DNA of 64,000 nt, from positions 41,416,001-41,480,000 of the forward strand of contig OX597829.1 in assembly GCA_951406725.2 (NCBI GenBank), read 5' to 3'. The DNA comes from Octopus vulgaris. Its lineage: Eukaryota. A program made the translations under genes and the position numbers. Under the pieces are notes generated by a model. That model made no database searches and was not told where the DNA came from. It saw nothing but the letters and a program-made list of their open reading frames with translations. Shown here piece after piece: positions 1 to 63,554 of the stretch (position 1 is the stretch's first letter; each line of letters opens with the position of its first letter).

Positions 1-455
1 TATACATACATACATGCATATATGCGGGTATGTCATACCCCGAACTATTGAACAGGATTTGAGCACAAATATATATACACACACAAATTATACGGGTGTA
101 TGTATATACGGGTGTTAGCGGTGTGTATGCACACACAGCACTATGTATATAAGCTCATGTGTGTATGTGTATATATATATATATATGCAAATTCTACATG
201 ATCCCTATGAGTATGCACATTAGAGCATTTATCGTATGTGTCCAAGGGTACATTTACAGGGGTGTCTAAAATACGTGCGCTTACATGTGTGCATGCAGGG
301 TATATATACAAAAACGTCACCATGTGTGTGTATACTTACATGTCCAATCGTTTGACAGATACTATTTCCAAGGAAACAACATGAAAACAACAACAAACTC
401 GGCCCAATATGACTGATGGCCGTCACCCTTATAATGTTAACAATGAACTACGTAC

Positions 456-947
456 CTGCCTTTGACGGTCTTGTAACGGTAGGGCCATCCACGGCATGTC
501 CGCTAAGTACTTTTGGTAAAGGGGCCAGTTTAGGGTCTCAAGTGCGGTGTCTGTCGATACAAAGATGATCTCTAAATTGTCCCGTAAGGGGGAATTCTGT
601 TTGAAATCTTTATAGAACCGCAGCACTGTGTTGAAAGCGTGCTGCGGTGTTCCCAAAACACAGCCCGCAGGGGCGACGTTCGACGATGAAGATGAAGAGG
701 CAGACGACAACAAGCCGCCATCTTCTTCTCTGTAGCTGTCGGGCAAGATGGCGAAGAACAAACCGATTATTTTGTCCTTTCCACTGATGTCTTTAACGGC
801 CAGCAGAGGAGAACACTTTCGGTGATGTCCGTCGTCCGTGCTGACGCTGCTGTCGTCGCTAGAAGTGGAGGCCGATATGGTGTTGTCCGCCGAGAGATTC
901 TGACAAGGGACGACGTAGTTTCCTAAAAGGTTTTCAATGGCGGCCAT
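456..947 (-). CDS. NXN: Nucleoredoxin-like protein, first coding exon (N-terminal thioredoxin-like domain); gene continues leftward beyond the window
   Basis: ORF MAAIENLLG...KIIGLFFA...FYKDFK...LEIIFVSTD...YLADMPWMALPLQDRQRQ matches nucleoredoxin N-terminal motifs (LLG, GLYF, LEIVFVSSD, DMPWLALP). CAG|GTACGT donor follows 456, giving 164 codons in phase 0; ORF residues VRSSLLTL are intronic read-through. Region is GC/CpG-rich relative to the window. Confidence 0.85.
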
Positions 948-1200
948 AACGACTGGATGGCGGGAAGTAGCATCACTCCTCTGACTCTTCCTCGCACTAT
1001 CCTCCTACCTCGTTTCTCTGCAATCCTCCTCCTCCCGGCACCCGCTTTCTTTCTTTTTTTACTCCCTAATATCTCTTACTAGCACAATCTCTAAGTTACA
1101 CTAGGCTGCTACCCTGTCTCTTTCTCTCTACATTTCAGCATCTGCCTCTGCTTCGCTTTCTCTTTCCCCTTACCTCTCTTCACTTACGCCTCCCTTGTCT
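948..1200 (-). promoter_or_regulatory. Probable 5' UTR/proximal promoter of the nucleoredoxin-like gene
   Basis: Unique, CpG-containing, purine-rich (minus strand) sequence directly upstream of the ATG; transcription start not identifiable. Confidence 0.3.
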
Positions 1201-19319: not shown

Positions 19320-20160
19320 TGGTGAAACTCTCAACAAACGCTGCATGCTGTATGAATGCAAAAGAGGCTCTTCAACAATATAAGTGGCAAGAAATATTCA
19401 TTCTGTTTATGAAAATGAAACTCAAAGTGCCCAGACAAACCAGCGATAGTCTGACCAGTTTCGCTAAGGGGAATTTTTCTCTCACTGATCTCTCTTCAAC
19501 TGGACAACCAAATTCATTCAATATTGAGCTTCTGAAATCTGTAGTTAAGGAAAACCAAAGGCAACTGCATGAGAACTAGCAAAACAGTTTGATTCAAGCC
19601 ACACTTTGATCATAAGACACATTGACTGACGATCCAGGGAAAGTGTTTAAAAATAATCAGTGGATACCCTCGTTATCTGACTTCTCGCCTTAATCAAAAT
19701 CCTGCTCTCTGCTCGTCATTTAAGAGTAGACTTGCTATAGAACCTTTTCTGGGTAGAATCATAGATTATGTGAATATTGTTTGAAAATAATTGTTCGTAA
19801 ACAATTATTCGTAAGCAATTATTTGGAAACAATTATTCGAAAAACATTTATTTGTATGGGAAATTGTATGAATGAAAATTGTTCAGAAGGACAATTATAT
19901 GAAATGATAATTATTATAAATTTTTTATTTTGCTTAAACAAAAATAATAAAATTAAAAAATCAAGTACACAAATGAAAATTTATTTTGAATAGCTGTTTT
20001 CCGAATAATTGTTTTTGAATAATTTTTTTTGAATAATTAATTATTTTCAATTTTCGTGATTCGGAATCATAGAAAATGGGTTCTTATCCAATGACAACAA
20101 TAAAGTATCCAATGGAAATGGAGGCTCCTCCCCCACCAAACTAGATCTACTACCAGAAAA
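19320..20160 (+). pseudogene. Decayed mariner transposase N-terminal half, interrupted by a ~300-bp AT-rich insertion
   Basis: Fragments FAKGNFSLTDLSSTGQP...LLKSVVKENQRQ, ELAKQF, GKV...WIP and FLGRII...KWVL match mariner HTH, WVPHEL and TGDEKWV regions; insertion at ~19765-20070 flanked by duplicated GAATCATAG. Confidence 0.6.
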
Positions 20161-20326
20161 ATTAGCGTTACTTGATCAGGATTAACGGAGATTTTCCTCT
20201 GCAAGTTACAAAGTGACTCAAACAGTGCTGGTGTTACAAAAAAAACACCCAGTATCCTTCAAGTTTTGGAAATTGATCTGAATAGGGACAATGTTGGACA
20301 TATAGTCACGCAAGTGAAATCGAAAT

Positions 20327-20670
20327 CGAAATCAAATTCGATGACTGGCATCAGTGTTAGTGGAGAACTAAGAGCACCATCTGAACATGATCATTGCCAG
20401 AGCAGCTAACTGGCTTCTGTGCTGGTGGCACGTAAAAAGGACCATTCGAGCATGATTGTTACCAGTGTCGCCTTACTGGCACGTAAAAGCACCCACTACA
20501 CTCTCAGAGTGGTTGGTGTTAGGAAGGGGATCCAGCTGTAGAAACTCCGTCAGATCAAAATTGAAGCCTGGGTTAGCCATATGGCTCGCCAGCCCTCAGT
20601 CATACGTCCAACCCATGCTAGCATGGAAAGCGAACGTTAAACGATGATGATGATGATGATAATGATGATG
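20327..20670 (+). mobile_element. RTE 3' UTR fragment (family C) with short module array
   Basis: Matches the 3' UTR of the RTE at 20941-21728; (GAT)n tail. Confidence 0.85.
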
Positions 20671-20940
20671 ATCTATATCTACATGCATAGCAGCATGAAA
20701 AGTTGGGTGAGTTTACCTGATTAGATGTTTTTTACATGGATTGATAGCAATATTAAGTCACAATTGCATTGATGTTTGATTTACTTGCTTATGGGTAGCA
20801 ACGTTCAATATAAACTCATTGGAATAAAACTGAACTCGTTTTTCATTTCAGTTTTGGGCGTCTTGTAGATTGCCTATCCAAGTGGACATTCCAAAATGAT
20901 TATGCTGAGGGGTATATATATATATATATACATATATATA

Positions 20941-21726
20941 AGGCAGACTGTATGATGCATGTGTACGAACAGCCATGCTACATGGTAGTGAAACATGGGC
21001 CGTGACTGCTGAGGATATGCGTAAGCTTACAAGGAATGAAGCCAGTATGCTCCGATGGATGTGTAATGTCAGTGTTCATAATCGACAGAGTGTAAGTACC
21101 TTGAGAGAAAAGTTGGACCTAAGAAGCATCAGTTGTGGTGTGCAAGAGAGACGTTTGCGCTGGTATGGTCATGTGATGAGAATGGCTGAAGATAGTTGTG
21201 TGAAAAAGTGCCACACCCTAGCGGTTGAGGGAACCTGTGGAAGAGGTAGACCCAGGAAAACCTGGGACGAGGTGGTGAAGCACGACCTTCGAACTTTAGG
21301 TCTCACCGAGGAAATGACTAGAGACCGAGACCTATGGAAGTATGCTGTGCGTGAAAAGACCCGACAAGCCAAGTGAGACCATAACCCATGGCCTCTACCT
21401 GGAATGTAGCCAGTCCACTTATGCATACCTTTCCTTCTTGGGACACAAAACTCTACTTGTGAAGACCTGTTGAGGCAAGTGAGAATCAGAATCAAAATCG
21501 AAATCAATCAACATCAATGGAAATTGTAGCTGTGATACCAGTGCCGGTGGCATGTAAAAAGCACCCACTACACTCACGGAGTGGTTGGCGTTAGGAAGGG
21601 CATCCAGCTGTAGAAACATTGCCAGATCAGACTGGGCCTGGTGCAGCCTTCTGGCCTCCCAGACCCCAGTTGAACCGTCCAACCCATGCTAGCATGGAAA
21701 GCGGACACTAAGTGATGATGATGATG

Positions 21727-21728
<2 letters not shown>
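20941..21728 (+). mobile_element. 5'-truncated RTE-clade LINE (C-terminal ORF to 21376 plus 3' UTR)
   Basis: LHGSETW...E..MLRWM...RRLRWYGHVMRM...GRGRPRKTW is a typical RTE C-terminus; starts within (TA)n, ends in (GAT)n. Confidence 0.92.
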
Positions 21729-21763
<35 letters not shown>

Positions 21764-22239: not shown

Positions 22240-22899
<660 letters not shown>

Positions 22900-23770: not shown

Positions 23771-24307
23771 CTAATATACATAATGTTTGAAAAGAAAAAT
23801 GAAGTGTATTACATTTGGTCAAGAATGTAAAATTAAGACAGGGTGGTTATGGTTGGAGCATCTTTGATCATATAGCAGTTCAATCAGGGCCAAGCTAAGA
23901 TTAAAACAACAACTACAAAAACAATTGCAGCAAACAGTAAGTGTGAACAGATTCATAATATTCATAGTATGCATTCATGCATGCTAAAGAGAAAACCTCT
24001 AACAGGTCATTTGACTTGCTGGAAAACGCAGCTGAAATCTTCATTGTATCACACCTTGCTATCTTAAAAAGGATATTCTTGATTGTGTAATTTGAAAAAT
24101 ACAAGGCTTCCTATAAAAAAAAAAAATATTCAATGGTTATCAATAAAATGGCTTTCAAATTAGCGTTACTTGATCAGGATTAACGGGGATTTTCCTCTGC
24201 AAGTTACAAAGTGACTCTAACAGTGCTGGTGTTACAAAAAAAAACACTCAGTATCCTTCAAGTTTTGGAAATTGATCTGAATAGGGACAATGTTGGACAT
24301 ATAGTCA

Positions 24308-24804
24308 TGCAAGTGAAATTGAAATCGAAATCAAATTCGATGACTGGCATCAGTGTTAGTGGAGAACTAAGAGCACCATCCGAGCATGATCGTTGCCAGA
24401 GCAGCTAACTAGCTTCTGTGCCGGTAGCACATAAAAAGCACCATTCGTGCATGATTGTTACCAGTGTCGCCTCACTGGCACTTGTGCTGGTGGCACGTGA
24501 AAAAAACATTCGAGCAAGGTCGTTGCCAGTGCCGCTGGACTGGCTCCTGTGCAGGAGGCACATAAAAAGCACCATTTGAGCATGGCTGTTGCCAGTATCG
24601 CCTGACTGGCCCTTGTGCTGGTGGCACGTAAAAGCACCCACTACACTCTTGGAGTGGTTGGTGTTAGGAAGGGCATCCAGCTGTAGAAACTCTGTCAGAT
24701 CAAAATTGGAGCCTGGGGCAGTCATCTGCTTTGCCTGTCCCCAGTCAAATCGTCCAACCCATGCTAGCATGGAAGCGGATGTTAAACGACGATGATGATG
24801 ATGA
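24308..24804 (+). mobile_element. RTE 3' UTR fragment (family C) with five modules
   Basis: Longest array copy in the window; (GAT)n tail. Confidence 0.88.
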
Positions 24805-24814
24805 TATATATATT

Positions 24815-25514: not shown

Positions 25515-25800
25515 TATGCATGGACTCATATAACAGACCAACATCAGCAATGTCATTCATTGTCCTCCAACGATTCTCATGCACATACTTATGAATTTTC
25601 CCCACATTTCTGGGAGTGATGCTTGTGGCAGGTCATCCAGATTGCTCAGGGATGTTCTTCTGCTTTTGAAGTGGCTGAACCACTCAAAACTGTGTATGGC
25701 CCATTGTCTCATCACTACAAACTTCCTGAAGTTTGCTCAATGAATCTGTAGCAGACTTGCCAAGTTTAATGCAAAACTTCACACTGGCTCTTTATTCATG
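25515..25800 (-). pseudogene. Decayed mariner transposase N-terminus
   Basis: RASVKFCIKLGKSATDS...FEWFSHFK...NVGKIHKYVHENRWRTMNDIA matches the mariner QRxxIKFCxKLGKxATE HTH region. Confidence 0.7.
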
Positions 25801-25869
25801 TCTATGGCAAAATCACAGACTACAGCACACACGTGATGTTACTTGGCACACTGAAATACCAGAACTATC

Positions 25870-27600
25870 TCAGGGGTCCAATCTTCTTGGAAGTGGTAAA
25901 CTCTATTAAACAGATCTCTTCTGGTAAAGCACCTGGCAAGGATGCTATTCCTCCTGAAATCTACAAACATGGTGGACAGAAGCTTTTTAAGAAAATGCAA
26001 GTCCTCTTCATAAGCATTTGGAAGGTAGGCCATGTACCACATAACTTCAAGGATGCCTCAGTTCAACATCTTTATAAAGAAACAGAAGTGTCTGTGATAA
26101 TCATCGTGGGATATCGCTTCTGTCTATTGCTGGTAAGATTCTTGCTCAACTCTTTCTTGACACGATCATCAAACACATTGTAAATGATATCTACCCAGAA
26201 TCACAGTGTAGATTTCACTCTGGTCGTGGCACTATCGACATGATCTTTTCCCTCCGAAAGGTCATGTAGAAGGTATGTGAGAAAAATCAAGAATTGTTCT
26301 TGATATCCGCTTGCCTCACCAAGGCCTCCGACATTGTTAACTGTCAAGCACTATTGAAAGTTGTTATAAAGTCTTGTATACCTGACAAGATGTTGAATGT
26401 TATCATCTCCTTTCATGAGGGAATGAAGGCAGCTATCGTGTCTGGTGGAAAATCTTGCGGTTCCTTCGACATTACAAACAGCACAAAACAAGATTGTGTT
26501 GTGGCCCCTATTTTGTTTGCACTCTTCTTTTCAGTGATACTGAGGTATGCTTTTGGTGACATACAAAGTGGTGCTGAATTCCAGTTCCGAACAAGTGGTG
26601 GCCTATTCAATCATCAGCGATTCAAAGCCAGAACACTGCTACGCATCAGTATCATTTGTGATCTACTTTTTGCAGATGATGCTGCACTAGTAGCGACCTC
26701 TTTAGAAGAAGTTCAGGAACTTCTAGACTAGTTTTCTGCTGCATGTAAAGCCTTTGGTTTGACCATCAGCATAAAGCAGACAGAAGTAATCCACAACCTT
26801 GCCCTACTCCTAAATAAATTCAAGGTATCAAGCAGAGGCCACTGGTTCACAGTTTTCCTGAAACTCCTATACAGGTTGATGGGAAAAGCCTAAATTATGT
26901 GAAGTCATTTACATATCTTAACAGAAAAGTGAATTAGTGCGTTTCCCTTGATGATGAAATCGTCAACCGCCTTGCAAAGGCAACCAAAGCATTCGGCAAA
27001 CTCTGTCATCGCCTATGGAATGAAAGGGGCATCAAATTTGACACCAAAGTACAGGTCTATAATGATACCATTCTTACTACTCTCTTGTATGCCTCAGAAT
27101 CAAGGATAACACATTAAGTAACTAGACATCTTCCACAAAGACTGTCTGAGGACAATCTACGGTTATTCTCTAAAAGACAGAGATTCTAATGCCGAATTGT
27201 TTAGCAAGTCTAAGATTGGTGGAATTGATAGCTTCCTTATTCAGTCACAATTGCGTTGGGCTGGCCATGTCATCAGAATGAGTTATGAAAAAATACCCAA
27301 AGTCCTCACGTACAGCCAGTTTGAAAGTGGGCACATGAATGTTGGTCGACCATGGCTCAGATATAAGGACAAGCTGAAGAGTAATCTCTTAGAAATGAAG
27401 ATAGTTCGCAACATCATTGAGCGAACAGCCTTGGAACAAACAAAATGGTTTTAAAAACATTGTTGCAACCAGGATTAACAGGCTTCAGGGTGCAAGGCAA
27501 AGGAGAAAAATGGCTGTAAATATACCACCTGCACTGACCTGTAATCCTCATACTCGCAACGTCTGTGGCCTTCTTTGCAAAATCGTTGGCGGAACTTAAA
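25870..27600 (+). mobile_element. Decayed RTE (BovB-like) LINE, RT domain and C-terminus
   Basis: GKAPGKDAIPPEIYK, NHRGISLL, PESQC.F..GR.T.DM.F, KQDCVVAPILF, LLFADD, QLRWAGHVIRM..IPK; multiple stops and frameshifts. Confidence 0.92.
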
Positions 27601-31025: not shown

Positions 31026-31483
31026 ACATATATATATATATATCATCATCATCATCATCATTGTCTAATGTCTGCCTTCTATGCTAGCATGGGTGGGATT
31101 GTTTCAAAGGAGCTGGCCAGGCAGAAGCCTGCACCAGACTTCTGTGACTGTTTTGGCAGGATTTCTATAGCTGGATGCCCTTCCTAACACCAACCACTCA
31201 GCAGAGTGGACCTAGCATTTTTTATGTGGCACGAGCACAGGCGAGGTCAGTTTTGGCAAAGTTTCCACAGCTGGGTGCCCTTACTAACACCAACCACTTT
31301 ACAGTGTGGTCTGGGTGCTTTTAAGTGGCACCTGCACTGACAGAGTCAGCAAGTACTTGCAAGAGAAGAAAAACCATTTTCAAGTAGGGAGGAAGGTGAT
31401 CTTGTGTTGGATGATGAAAGTTTATAGTGAGACAGAGAGACAGAAACAGGTGTCTTGCTGTAGAGGAGGTACAAGGTTACTCA

Positions 31484-36576: not shown

Positions 36577-37957
36577 AATCATGTTCCTTGAAGAAAATGA
36601 CTTGCTGACTGACACCCAGCATGGGTTTCGACCAGGTCGAAGCTGCCTAACACAGCTCCTGCAACACTATGACTGGGTGTTAAAACAGCTACTAAATGGC
36701 TCAAATGTGGATGTGATATATCTCGACTTTGCAAAAGCCTTTGATAAAGTCGATCATGGTATGATTTGTCACAAACTGAGTGGTCTCGGCATAGGCGGAA
36801 AACTATCCTGAAAGATAGAAGACAGGCAGTTGTGACCAATGGAGCCACCTCCAAGGAAACACAAATAACAAGCGGTGTTCCACAGGGCACTGTCTTGGGG
36901 CCAATGCTGTTCATAGTGGCCCTTTCAGACATGCCCTCAGTTGCTAAGATGGCCACCCTTGCTAGCTATGCAGATGACACAAAAGTCTCCCACACAATAC
37001 AAAACCCTGGAAATATTGCACATCTGCAACAGGAGTTGGATACAATATACAGGTGGGCTGAGGACAACAACATGCAGTTTAATGCAGGTAAGTTCCAGGC
37101 CCTGCACTACCTGCACGCAAAGGTAAACGACATGCAGACTGGATAACCTGGCCCGAGAAGAATTGCAATCTCTGGGTCAAAATCAGTGCATGACCTGGGC
37201 ATTGACATGAGCAATGATGCATCTTTCCAAGTGCATATTACTAATCTGGTGATAAAATGCAGACGGCTAGCTGAATGGATTCTCCAAACTTTCAGAACAA
37301 GAGAGAAGGAGACACTGATGGTCCTGTGGAAAACTTTCATCCTCAGCCGCTTGGACTACTGCTCCCAACTATGGTCACCACACAATATAAAACTAACAGC
37401 AGAACTCGAAGCAATTCAAAGAAGCTACACAAAGAAGATTGTCTCAATGCAACATATCAGCTACTGGGAAAGACTGAAAGTATTAAACCTCTTCTCCCTA
37501 GAGCGAAGGCGGGAGAGACATGCGGTGATATACATCTGGAAAATCCTGGAGGATCTTGTCCCAAACTTTGGCATTCAAAGTTACCCCAACCGCAGAACGG
37601 GGCACCACTGCATGGTGCCAAAGATTCCAACATCACCATCAAAATACAGGACCAGATACTGCAACAGCTTGGGTTTCAGAGGACCACAGCTCTTTAACAT
37701 CCTTCCTAAATGCCTGAGGGACTTGCATGGTGTGGATGTGGGTTTCTTTAAAACTAAACTGGATCTCTTCTTGTCGGGGGTCCCAGATGAACCTACCTCA
37801 CGACAGGAGACACAGATGTGGGCAGCGGCATCAAACTCCCTTGTTGACCAAGTGCCACGTATCAGAGGTGAATTCACATATTAGTGTAGCTCATTCAGCG
37901 GTGGTGCCCCAGCATGGCCGCGGTGTTCGGGCTAAAACATTTTTAAGGATTTGAGGA
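36577..37957 (+). mobile_element. 5'-truncated CR1-clade LINE with RT domain and 3' UTR
   Basis: QHGFRPGRSC.TQLL, YLDFAKAFDKV.H, SGVPQGTVLGP.LF, YADDT, RLDYCSQLWSP, SLERRRER; stop at 37884; tail repeats TTT(A/G)AGGA. A tail-only copy lies at ~36213-36260. Confidence 0.93.
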
Positions 37958-41430: not shown

Positions 41431-42478
41431 CATACATACATATATATACACACACACACACACACATACACATATGTATACAATGGGATTCTTTCAGTTT
41501 CTGCCAATCAAATCCACTCACAATATTCTGGTTGGCCCTAGGCTAAAATAGAAGATACTTGCCCAAGGTGTCAGGCTGTAGGACCCAGAACCATGTACTT
41601 TGGAAGCAAGCTTCCTACCATGCAGCCACACTTGTGCCTATATATCCCAATAATATATAAATATATTAATTCTATTTAACTAGAATTAAAAGCTTCCTTT
41701 GTGCTATAGTAAAAAGGATTATAATTATTGTCCTTCCATAGCGTATACTTCTCAATAGGGGTGTGTATTCTTTTATTATATTTCTTTATTCTTTTACTTG
41801 TTTCAGTCATTTGACTGCGGCCATGCTGGGGTGCCACCTGAAAGAGGTTTTAGTTGAAGAAATTGAATCCAGGGCTTATTCTTTGCAAGCATAGTACTTA
41901 TTCTGTCAGTCACTTTTGCCAAACTGCTACATTATGGGGATGTAAACACACCAACATCAGTTGTCAAGTGAAGGTGGGGGTGGGGGGTAATAAGCATAGA
42001 CCCAAAGACAATTTATATGTCCCCGTACATGATACAACCGTAAGACATTTATTGGATGACCGTTAACTCTCAAGAGTTCCTCCGCCCTTTATACATACAT
42101 CCTATATATCCCAATAATATATAAATATATTAATTCTATTTAACTAGAATTAAAAGCTTATTGCTATAGTAAAAAGGATTATAATTATTGTCCTTCCATA
42201 GCGTATACTTCTCAATAGGGGTGTGTATTCTTTTATTATATTTCTTTATTCTTTACTTGTTTCAGTCATTTGACTGCGGCCATGCTGGGGTGCCACCTGA
42301 AAGAGGTTTTAGTTGAAGAAATTGAATCCAGGGCTTATTCTTTGCAAGCATAGTACTTATTCTGTCAGTCACTTTTGCCAAACTGCTACATTATGGGGAT
42401 GTAAACACACCAACATCAGTTGTCAAGTGAAGGTGGGGGTGGGGGGTAATAGACACAGACACAAGGACACATAAATAC

Positions 42479-42573: not shown

Positions 42574-42936
42574 TCGAAATTGAAATCGAATTGAACCAGC
42601 CAGGATCCCTGGTCTGGTGGTACGTAAAAAGCACTATCCGACTCGTGGCTGATGCCAGCGCCGCCTCGACTGGCTTCCGTGCCGGTGGCACATAAAATAC
42701 ACCAATCCGACCGTGGCCGTTGCCAGCCTCGCCTGGCACCTGAGCAGGTGGCACGTAAAAAGCACCCACTACACTCACGGAGTGGTTGGCGTTAGGAAGG
42801 TCATCCAGCTGTAGAAACATTGCCAGATAAGACTGGAGCCTGGTGCAGCCTTCTGGCTTCCCAGATCCCCGGTCAAACCGTCCAACCCATGCTAGCATAG
42901 AGAACGGACGTTAAACGATGATGATGATGATGATGA

Positions 42937-42940
<4 letters not shown>
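42574..42940 (+). mobile_element. RTE 3' UTR fragment (family C, different subfamily) with three modules
   Basis: Modules differ in sequence from the 24308 copy but keep the same pairings. Confidence 0.85.
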
Positions 42941-58422: not shown

Positions 58423-59436
58423 TTAATACTTCGTAGCATAACCATCATTATTCAGTTCCACTTCAACCAATCTCTTCTTGTAGCTCTTAATCAATGACTT
58501 GGATGTTTCTTTAGGAATTTTTTCCCATTTTTCTTGACAAATTTTCTTCAAATCTGCAATGCACATTGGGGCTCTTGAATGAATTGTAATTTTCAAATAA
58601 CGCCACAAATTTTCAATGGGGTTCAAGTCAGGTGACTGGCTTGGCCATTCTAATAATTTTATTTTGTGATCGACTATCCCTTTCTTGGTAGACTTTGCCA
58701 TGTGCTTAGGGTTGTTATCCGGTTGTAAAACCCACCCTTCACAAAGCTGGAGCTTTTCTACAGAGTCCCATAAATTATTGTTCAAAATATTTTGGTACAT
58801 CTCTGCATTCCTTCTACCATCTATCACATGTAAATTGCCAGTACCATTTGCAGAGAAACACCCCAACACCATGATGTTGCCACCTCCAAACTTTATGGTA
58901 GGAATTGTGTTTTTCGGTGAATAGGTGGTAAAATCTTTCCTCCAAACATGGCTACGCGAATTTCGTCCAAACAATTCAATTTTCGACTCGTCTCTCCATA
59001 GAACATTTTCCCAGAATATATCAGATTAATCTTTGTTCATAAACAAATTTTAAATGGGCATCTCTATGCCTTTTAGTCAACAGCGGAGTTTTTCTAGGAG
59101 AGCATGACTTCAGTTCATTCCTATGAAGTTCATTGCTGATTGTTTGTAGTGTAACATTAGTCCCTGAAGCTAACAAATCTTCTTGCAACTCATTTCTGGT
59201 GATCATTGCATTTTTTTCGATTCTTCACTTCATTTTTCTTAAAGATCAGGGGAAATCTTGCATGGTGCACCGGATCTTATTCTGTTTTCAACAGTTCCCA
59301 ATTTTTTTTATATCTTTGAATAAATGAAGATATGGTAGAAAATGGAATACAAAGGGTCTCTGATATTTTACTGTAACTTTTACCTGCTTCCCACTGTTTT
59401 TTTCACTGAATTTGTGAGTTCTTTACTTTTCGCCAT
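58423..59436 (-). pseudogene. Tc1 transposase pseudogene
   Basis: MAKSKELT start; VLWRDESKIELFG (first D); GGGNIMV.GCFS; QPDNNPKH-34aa-E with WPSQSPDLNPIENLW; G..TKY end; frameshifts in the N-terminal half. Confidence 0.92.
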
Positions 59437-62430: not shown

Positions 62431-62672
62431 TATATATATACACACACACACACACACATACACATATATATATATATAATGATGATAATAATAATAATAA
62501 TAATAATAAAGAGTAAAATTAATTAATTAACTAGTAATTAATAATTCCACCAATTAGAATTTGGCATGATAAAAAGACCATTTTTCGGTAAACTTAAACA
62601 ATATTTTATAATTATGAGTATAATTATAATTAGGGTTCAGCAAAGATTTGCTTTATGTGGTAAAGCAAATCT

Positions 62673-63554
62673 TTGCTTCTTTTTAATTCATGCCACCCAA
62701 GACACACTAAAACAAACATCCCCTTCAACCTTGCAAGAAGGATATGCACAATAGTGTCAGAACAAAATACCAGGAACTTTAGACTGCAAGAACTCAAAAA
62801 CACCCTAATTGACAGACATTACCCAGCTCAACTCATAGAGGATGGGATCAGACGTGCAACAGAAATAAACATAGAAACTTTAAGAAAAGTTCAACACAAC
62901 AACATACCTTCCCCGAAAATACTACCTTACATATCTACATACAACCCCAGAAACAAAGAAGCCTTCACCATCATCACCCAGAATTTACCAATACTTCATA
63001 AAAACCCCAAATTAAAGGAAATTCTAAACGTACACCAAATCATTAAAAGCTACAAACAGCCTAAATCACTTAAAAAGATTCTCACAAAGGCAAAATTGTC
63101 TTCTGAAATTACGGATGCAATAGTAAAAAAATGTGGTAGATCGAACTGTGCAACATGTCCTAACCTGCTAGAAGGATCAGAATTCCTCTTTAAAGAGGGA
63201 CAGAAATTCAAGATCAAATCTAACTTTACTTGTGCCTCTGAAAACATAATTTATGTCATAAAATGCTCGGGCTGCCACCAAGACTACGTGGGTTCCACGG
63301 GACTATCACTCAGATGTAGATGCACACTGCATCGACAACAGATTGCATTCCCAGAATATAGAATGATACCTTTTAGTGAGCACATTGAGAAATGCGCAAA
63401 GCAACTACTACCACAATTTTTAATCTTTCCATTTTACCAATGTGCTTTTGGATCATCAACACAAATTAGACTAAACAAGGAAACATTCTTCATTGAAAAG
63501 TACAAGCCCAGACTCAACCATCCGAACATACTGATACAGAGAAATTCACATTAA
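62673..63554 (+). mobile_element. 5'-truncated Penelope-like retroelement (Neptune type): RT thumb, Cys linker, GIY-YIG endonuclease
   Basis: SCHP.HTK..IPF..A.R...I.S (PLE thumb), R.YP, P.I.TYNP, CGRSNCATC zinc linker, FTC.SEN.IY.I.C..C...YVG.T...L..R...H, E..FI....P.LN; uninterrupted 293 codons. Confidence 0.93.

What the first reader, a model, noticed from the sequence alone, without database searches (positions are those of the whole stretch)
24340..24640. Variable-copy array of ~65-nt hairpin + H-type pseudoknot modules in an RTE LINE 3' UTR
Seen: each unit reads ACTGGC-n3-(C)GTGC-CGGTG-GCAC(G)-TAAAAA-GCACC-linker-GTT-GCCAGT-n8-ACTGGC. (C)GTGC/GCAC(G) forms stem 1 and loop GGTG can pair with CACC after an A-rich strand, the geometry of a compact H-type pseudoknot. 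GCCAGT/ACTGGC forms a hairpin between units, with covariation: GCCAGA/TCTGGC (~22455), CCAGTG/CACTGG (~24461), GCCAG/CTGGC (~42722), CCAGG/CCTGG (~42600), while loop sequences vary. Copy number differs among insertions: about 1 (21540), 2-3 (20340), 3 (42600), 4 (22455), 5 (24340). Inference: a selected, iterated RNA structure (exonuclease roadblock, RT/ORF-binding platform, or small catalytic/ligand-binding fold). I do not know of such an array described for RTE elements.
Basis: partly seen in the sequence, partly recalled or inferred. Interest (0 to 1): 0.75.

Follow-up and report, generated by a model that had tools for sequence, protein, structure and literature searches.

The report
Retrotransposon tail keeps re-copying one knot
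A very common jumping gene in this animal genome carries, just before its tail, 1 to 14 head-to-tail copies of a short segment predicted to fold into a small RNA knot; the last copy is conserved and likely helps the element's own protein recognise its RNA, while the extra copies were made repeatedly and independently and are probably mostly spare.

Summary
The array is real. It lies in the 3' UTR of a single-ORF LINE (RTE-like by recall; endonuclease, RT, PHD-like finger; (GAT)n tail). The 20-nt core has 39,169 exact genomic matches, and 85 of 87 complete UTRs hold 2-14 modules. The last module begins a conserved ~170-nt end block. There lineage-level changes avoid predicted stems (7/80 vs 25/80 columns, p=6e-4, partly circular) and the predicted pseudoknot is never broken. 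Internal units are relaxed: about 10 of 30 unit types lost the pseudoknot, covariation does not exceed shuffles (188/500), and nested folding favours other pairings. The hairpin survives in all assessable types. The surprise: three lineages amplified this motif with different units (26, ~63, ~100 nt), up to 61 copies. Corrections: 20340 and 24340 are one duplicated insertion, and the 24461 'covariation' is private. No Rfam or ribozyme-core match. Best reading: a 3'-end recognition module, like the R2 pseudoknot-hinge-stem, multiplied by slippage or template switching. Selection for extra copies is not excluded. The scan's look-ups returned no earlier report of this array.

The parts
24309..24806 (+). 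5'-truncated LINE copy (3' UTR only), RTE-like family
   Evidence: full-length relatives L081-L084 have 1051-1059-aa open frames
24340..24415 (+). unit 1, degenerate (stem 1 lost; CACC and an imperfect hairpin GCCAGA..ACTAG remain)
24416..24482 (+). unit 2: pseudoknot motif with one change in stem 1, linker, hairpin
24483..24546 (+). unit 3: a unit type that lost the CACC strand at lineage level (type W); hairpin intact
24547..24613 (+). unit 4: pseudoknot motif with one change in stem 2 (GGAG), linker, hairpin
24614..24638 (+). terminal module, intact predicted H-type pseudoknot (S1 4-5 bp, L1 1 nt, S2 4 bp, A-rich L3)
   Evidence: a 30-mer starting in this module has 18,440 exact genomic matches
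24663..24696 (+). second hairpin or possible pseudoknot of like geometry (loop AGGGCA, downstream TGCC; TGTC in this copy), shared with non-octopus repeats
24759..24772 (+). last hairpin CCATG/CATGG, with a compensatory A-U to G-C change in a sub-lineage
24788..24806 (+). (GAT)n tail
20159..20672 (+). local duplicate of the same insertion with its 5' flank; two units lost between TGGCAC words
20942..21729 (+). copy with ORF end (20942-21376) and a one-module 3' UTR (module 21540-21565), a rare state (2 of 87)
22355..22861 (+). independent truncated copy, 4 modules
42577..42940 (+). independent truncated copy, 3 modules (types U, H, terminal)
31037..31339 (-). older lineage (GGTGC-CAC variant) with a ~100-nt duplication covering the module, hairpin and second motif
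   Evidence: 690 exact matches of its 20-mer

Best explanation
The array is made of head-to-tail copies of the first module of this LINE's conserved 3'-end block; the last copy is predicted to fold as a small H-type pseudoknot that likely helps the element's own protein pick out and position its RNA, and the extra copies likely arise by repeated slippage or template switching and are probably mostly redundant. SHOWN: position, copy numbers, conservation of the last copy across lineages, decay of internal copies, long arrays carried by source elements, and copy-number change after insertion. INFERRED: the pseudoknot fold, protein binding (perhaps by the PHD-like finger, by analogy with R2), the duplication mechanism, and near-neutrality of the extra units.
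For: (1) Terminal block, 201 copies (of 238 aligned; 37 dropped as over 17% diverged): lineage-level alleles (10 or more copies, CpG-type excluded) hit 7 of 80 paired columns (2 disruptive) against 25 of 80 unpaired, p=6e-4. Rare private changes hit both alike (0.022 vs 0.017). (2) In the terminal module, 0 of 18 paired columns have a disruptive lineage-level change, against changes in 3 of 8 unpaired columns. The L1 base is C, A or G in different subfamilies, which fits a pseudoknot better than a 6-bp triloop hairpin. (3) An older lineage has an A-U outer stem-1 pair in place of C-G, and a junction C that can join stem 2 instead of stem 1 (one event each). (4) About 10 of 30 internal types lost the pseudoknot, often in 5'-most positions. 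(5) Within one subfamily the type-A unit runs from 0 to 11 copies; two separate insertions (L084, L085) share the same 11-unit order and variants, so arrays pass through retrotransposition. (6) 20340 vs 24340 shows loss after insertion. (7) Other UTR parts also duplicate: a 5' UTR unit repeated about 8 times in L083, whole-UTR blocks in L089, L092, L095, L096. (8) Precedent: avian and turtle R2 proteins recognise a 3' UTR pseudoknot-hinge-stem through a zinc finger, and compensatory mutants rescue activity (PMC12180492, passages); stringent LINEs need their 3' tail (PMC4176376, passages).
Against: No covariation above shuffles in 30 internal types: score 0.125 vs 0.121, 188/500; the one double change (C-G to U-A) can be CpG decay. 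Stem 2 is nearly invariant, so it cannot covary. In nested (pseudoknot-blind) ensembles of 16 UTRs, stem 1 has mean probability 0.15 (internal) and 0.08 (terminal) because GTGCC/GGCAC words pair between units. Arrays are no more stable than shuffles (z -0.67; -0.63 to +0.23). The stems were drawn after seeing the alignment, so that p-value is optimistic. The module lies about 170 nt from the 3' end, farther than the R2 motif (last 68 nt). Three independent amplifications of the same motif and 85 of 87 multi-module UTRs fit selection for extra copies equally well. The second motif also occurs in DANA, whose partner is listed as CR1-clade, which hints at a host-factor role rather than RT recognition.
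Confidence: 0.5

Rival explanations
1. The extra modules are themselves selected: more pseudoknot and hairpin units give more binding sites or better RNA stability and translation for an RNA that lacks a genomic poly(A) tail, like the tandem pseudoknots of the tobamovirus upstream domain.
For: Three lineages amplified this motif with different units: ~63 nt, bare 26 nt (67 exact junction matches; 21 distinct arrays of 3-61 units) and ~100 nt. 85 of 87 complete UTRs are multi-module, 57 of 62 by a stricter count. The least diverged subfamily (2%) has the longest arrays. The hairpin keeps 4-5 bp in 28 of 28 assessable types while its loop changes most (3.5 changes per column vs 0.67). TMV's three tandem pseudoknots act in replication and translation (PMC4683447, passages).
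Against: About 10 of 30 types lost the pseudoknot. One-module copies exist (2 of 87). Once two copies exist, slippage alone makes more. The longest 26-nt arrays may be genomic minisatellite growth. Young elements have had less time to lose units.
Confidence: 0.25
2. There is no pseudoknot. The motif is a conserved sequence or simple hairpin rich in GTGCC/GGCAC words, and the array is a neutral minisatellite seeded by that self-similarity.
For: The 6-bp triloop hairpin scores -9.0 kcal/mol against -6.4 for stem 1 alone and -5.0 for stem 2 alone; nested ensembles prefer inter-unit pairs. No covariation in stem 2. In the 26-nt lineage stem 1 is only 3 bp. Deletion at TGGCAC microhomology in 20340.
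Against: The L1 base varies C/A/G across source lineages, which breaks the triloop pair. GGTG and CACC are both kept in every terminal lineage seen.
Confidence: 0.18
3. Each unit is a small self-cleaving ribozyme or an exonuclease-resistant fold that makes defined RNA ends.
For: Other RTE elements use ribozymes, but at the 5' end (PMC8501958, passages; PMC5786205). By eye, several duplication junctions fall in or just after a module. There is a weak excess of 5' truncations at the module's 5' edge (23 vs 12 expected).
Against: No Rfam match at gathering or at E<=10 beyond chance hits. Recalled hammerhead and pistol cores occur in 0 of 57 arrays, twister-like in 1, HDV-like in 4. The truncation test overall gives p=0.073. 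Cleavage in the 3' UTR would cut off the priming end.
Confidence: 0.07

Closest known systems
A-clade R2 3' UTR pseudoknot-hinge-stem (Thawani et al., PMC12180492; passages read)
   Same: Compact pseudoknot in a non-LTR element's 3' UTR, next to an A-rich strand and a stem; the protein carries a zinc-binding finger.
   Different: R2 is an RLE-type element with one copy within the last 68 nt, shown by cryo-EM and mutants. Here an APE-type element, about 170 nt from the end, 1-14 copies (to 61 in an older lineage), fold and binding untested.
Stringent-type LINE 3' tails (UnaL2, ZfL2 stem-loops; RTE LINE/SINE pairs; PMC4176376 and PMC3747384, passages)
   Same: Conserved structured 3' end before a short tandem-repeat tail.
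   Different: Those are single stem-loops; no iterated module appeared in the passages read.
Tobamovirus upstream pseudoknot domain (PMC4683447, passages)
   Same: Several consecutive small pseudoknots upstream of a terminal structured domain.
   Different: Viral, with three fixed pseudoknots and a shown function; no Rfam match here. Analogy only.
RTE-2_OV of Octopus vulgaris (PMC9115989, passages)
   Same: Single-ORF RTE LINE with endonuclease, RT and zinc finger, about 1100 aa.
   Different: Its 3' UTR is described as mostly microsatellite and no array is mentioned. The motif was not found in the supplement files searched, and files 5-8 were not searched. Probably another family; not aligned.

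Membership tests
RTE-clade LINE | single ORF with APE endonuclease followed by RT | tested here: met
   1059-aa frame: Exo_endo_phos, RVT_1 E=6e-31, PHD-like E=6e-4 below cut-off
RTE-clade LINE | short tandem-repeat tail and frequent 5' truncation | tested here: met
   (GAT)n tails; 19 of 163 scored insertions reach the ORF
RTE-clade LINE | RT groups with named RTE elements in a tree | not tested
H-type pseudoknot | two interleaved stems with feasible loops | tested here: met
   S1 4-5 bp, L1 1 nt, S2 4 bp, L3 6-7 nt A-rich; 1 nt across 4 bp is tight by recalled geometry
H-type pseudoknot | covariation in both stems | tested here: inconclusive
   internal types 188/500 shuffles; stem 2 near-invariant; one non-CpG double change in stem 1 between lineages
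H-type pseudoknot | both stems form in solution | not testable with these tools
   pseudoknot-blind folding gives low stem-1 probability
R2 pseudoknot-hinge-stem | RLE-type element, motif within the last ~68 nt | tested here: not met
   APE-type ORF; module about 170 nt from the tail
R2 pseudoknot-hinge-stem | bound by the element's zinc finger | not testable with these tools
   a PHD-like finger is present; binding unknown
Known small ribozymes (hammerhead, twister, pistol, HDV-like) | match to family model or catalytic core | tested here: not met
   recalled core motifs in 0-4 of 57 arrays
xrRNA, preQ1-I, viral upstream pseudoknot families | match to Rfam model | tested here: not met
   no hit in the window at gathering, nor in two arrays at E<=10

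The most novel reading that the evidence does not exclude
The 26-nt pseudoknot is a stackable functional module that this LINE lineage has amplified three separate times because more copies raise RNA stability, translation or protein loading: a tunable poly(A) substitute at a retrotransposon's 3' end, paired with a second knot-like motif shared across LINE clades and phyla.
Probability: 0.2. Interest if true: 0.8.

Novelty: new variant of a known kind. Interest (0 to 1): 0.48.

Why it matters
How RTE proteins recognise their RNA matters because RTE systems are being built as gene-writing tools and UTR changes raised their efficiency (PMC13708176, passages). This family offers a 26-nt candidate element, natural variants with 1 to 14 copies, and lineage-level mutations that give ready-made tests. 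If copy number tunes activity, it would be a new way for a retrotransposon to evolve. If not, it is a clean record of how LINE UTR arrays grow and shrink, and tens of thousands of such structured tails sit in this genome.

Tried and rejected
Rfam: 0 hits in the window and chance hits only for two arrays. The module is not in the 5' UTR of the full-length copies checked, so a bipartite 5'-UTR origin was dropped. Motif strings were not found in the supplements searched of PMC5786205, PMC4824008 (file 1 not searched), PMC13282606 or PMC9115989 (files 5-8 not searched); figures and unsearched files could still show it. RT stalling at modules: truncation phase in 86 insertions vs 269 simulated, p=0.073, a weak hint only. 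Global folding stability: none. RNA ends and expression: no RNA holder listed; contigs of four coded organisms carry the family but cannot show ends. The patterns were absent from viral and prokaryote collections. Literature: no paper on such an array among the listings; the library lacks most subscription journals and Repbase reports. One genome-wide count for the last hairpin was not obtained, so that hairpin rests on the local sample.

Full report
CONTEXT. The window is G000:C16:41,416,001-41,480,000 of a 2.8-Gb animal genome, an octopus according to unchecked earlier scan notes. The finding lies in a 5'-truncated LINE copy at 24309-24806. A copy at 20942-21729 links the same 3' end to an ORF terminus. 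That peptide finds 150 scored matches at 93-100% identity among 65,260 candidates. Full-length relatives have one 1051-1059-aa frame with endonuclease, RT and a PHD-like finger and end in (GAT)n.

OBSERVATION. The array, the motif and the hairpin are real. The 20-nt core has 39,169 exact matches against 0 for the reversed control; 18,440 exact 30-mers mark terminal modules. In about 1.3 Mb of fetched DNA, partly chosen by motif or protein search and so biased, 292 arrays ended in the terminal block with 1-24 modules. Of 87 that also kept the upstream UTR, 85 had 2-14 modules (HMM fragments may inflate some counts; a stricter count gives 57 of 62). Corrections: only the last of the five units at 24340-24640 is intact; 20340 and 24340 are one duplicated insertion; one cited covariation is private, one is lineage-level, one is a different hairpin.

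ANATOMY. After the ORF come a variable spacer, n internal units of [motif - linker - hairpin], a terminal module, and a conserved block of about 170 nt with a hairpin, a second hairpin whose AGGGCA loop can pair with a downstream TGCC, further hairpins and the tail. The motif reads as S1 (C/U)GUGC/GCAC(G/A), a 1-nt L1, S2 GGUG/CACC and an A-rich L3.

SELECTION TEST. Genomic copies mutate neutrally after insertion, so I separated shared (source-lineage) alleles from private ones. In 201 terminal blocks (of 238 aligned from 262 found), shared non-CpG alleles fall in 7 of 80 predicted paired columns, 2 of them disruptive, and in 25 of 80 unpaired columns (p=6e-4). Private changes do not discriminate (0.022 vs 0.017). 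I drew the stems after seeing the alignment, and one hairpin has an alternative register, so the p-value is optimistic. In the terminal module no shared change breaks a pair, while L1 (C/A/G), the A-run length and the last L3 base vary (the script mis-tagged L1 C-to-A as CpG, which does not change the column count). An older lineage has an A-U outer pair and GGUGC/GCACC (690 exact matches). The last hairpin shows a true A-U to G-C swap.

INTERNAL UNITS. 602 full-length units gave 30 types covering 415 units. Strictly, 15 types keep both stems. By eye 5 of the other 15 fail only through CpG decay or clipped ends, leaving about 10 real losses. The hairpin keeps 4-5 bp in 28 of 28 assessable types; its loop changes 3.5 times per column against 0.67 for its 5' arm. 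On one representative per type, 89.7% of pseudoknot cells pair but covariation equals shuffles (188/500). Arrays fold no better than shuffles. Pseudoknot-blind ensembles give stem 1 only 0.08-0.15 and the hairpin 0.48. So the iterated pseudoknot is not demonstrated.

ORIGIN OF COPY NUMBER. One young subfamily runs from 0 to 11 type-A units, often alternating two variants. L084 and L085, separate insertions, share the same 11-unit order and variants, so long arrays exist in source elements and are copied through RNA. The 20340/24340 pair shows loss at DNA level. Other UTR parts also duplicate (L083 5' UTR; L089, L092, L095, L096). Up to 22 of 62 UTRs have a duplication starting upstream of the first module, several of them only degenerate first units. 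Truncation points are only weakly enriched at the module's 5' edge (23 vs 12 expected; overall p=0.073).

RECURRENCE. An older lineage with the same end block, and in several loci a related ORF end (35-55% identity in decayed copies), carries arrays of the bare 26-nt motif: 21 distinct arrays of 3-61 units, 14 with the end block by a strict test. A third lineage duplicated about 100 nt including the motif. Three amplifications with different boundaries that all contain the motif is the most striking result. It fits a duplication hotspot or selection for more copies; these data cannot separate the two.

WIDER DISTRIBUTION. The family and its units occur in contigs of four coded organisms. The second motif occurs in 121 metagenome stretches, 110 of them one SINE-like family without the downstream TGCC, and 3 with it. 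It is also in the printed zebrafish DANA sequence with a different but fully pairing stem (10.1101/493155, passages); DANA's partner is listed as CR1-3DR/ZfL3 (PMC3747384, passages). By eye, I saw no counterpart of the first motif in those loci.

COMPARISON. It works most like the R2 pseudoknot-hinge-stem (PMC12180492, passages) but is not a member. It resembles the tobamovirus tandem pseudoknots in layout only (PMC4683447, passages). It matches no Rfam family or recalled ribozyme core. Papers seen: PMC5786205 parts 1-3 of 5 and its supplement search; PMC13282606 part 1 of 3 and its supplement search; passages of PMC9115989, PMC8501958, PMC13708176, PMC4176376, PMC4758252, PMC3747384; supplement search only for PMC4824008; the rest as listings. 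None of these described the array.

VERDICT. A real, apparently undescribed variant of a LINE 3'-end structure. The terminal copy is under constraint, the internal copies are relaxed, and amplification has recurred. Fold and function are untested. Interest 0.48.

Noticed in passing
window 24663-24696; L189, L244, L245; DANA: A second hairpin or possible pseudoknot (AGGGCA loop, GTA(A/G)AA strand, TGCC/TGCT) is shared by this LINE, animal repeats in metagenomes and zebrafish DANA (CR1-type partner), with compensatory changes in its stem. It may be an old cross-clade 3'-end element.
   Followed up: partly
L312-L341 (for example L341, L318): An older lineage carries arrays of the bare 26-nt motif, 3-61 units, in several loci directly after the ORF end.
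   Followed up: partly
L083, upstream of the ORF: The 5' UTR of a full-length copy holds about 8 tandem copies of a ~79-nt unit.
   Followed up: no
L089, L092, L093, L095, L096: Whole 3' UTR blocks, some including the ORF end, are duplicated in tandem; by eye several junctions fall in or just after a module.
   Followed up: partly
L131-L251: 110 of 121 metagenome hits are one ~250-nt SINE-like family with a fairly sharp 5' start and a ..GTTAAACG + (GT)n end like this LINE's end.
   Followed up: partly
window 20159-20672 and 24157-24806: A local duplication about 4 kb apart of one insertion with ~150 nt of unique flank.
   Followed up: yes
window ~41630-42000 and ~42090-42460: A near-identical local tandem duplication of about 400 nt including a SINE-like piece (seen).
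   Followed up: no
window 429-1004 (-): An open frame with a thioredoxin/nucleoredoxin-like stretch (by recall), probably a host exon.
   Followed up: no
window 25770-27454 (+), 36748-37884 (+), 58423-59025 (-), 62664-63554 (+): Fragments of other mobile elements: a second LINE, an RT (RVT_1), a DDE_3 transposase, and a Penelope-like endonuclease region (by recall).
   Followed up: partly
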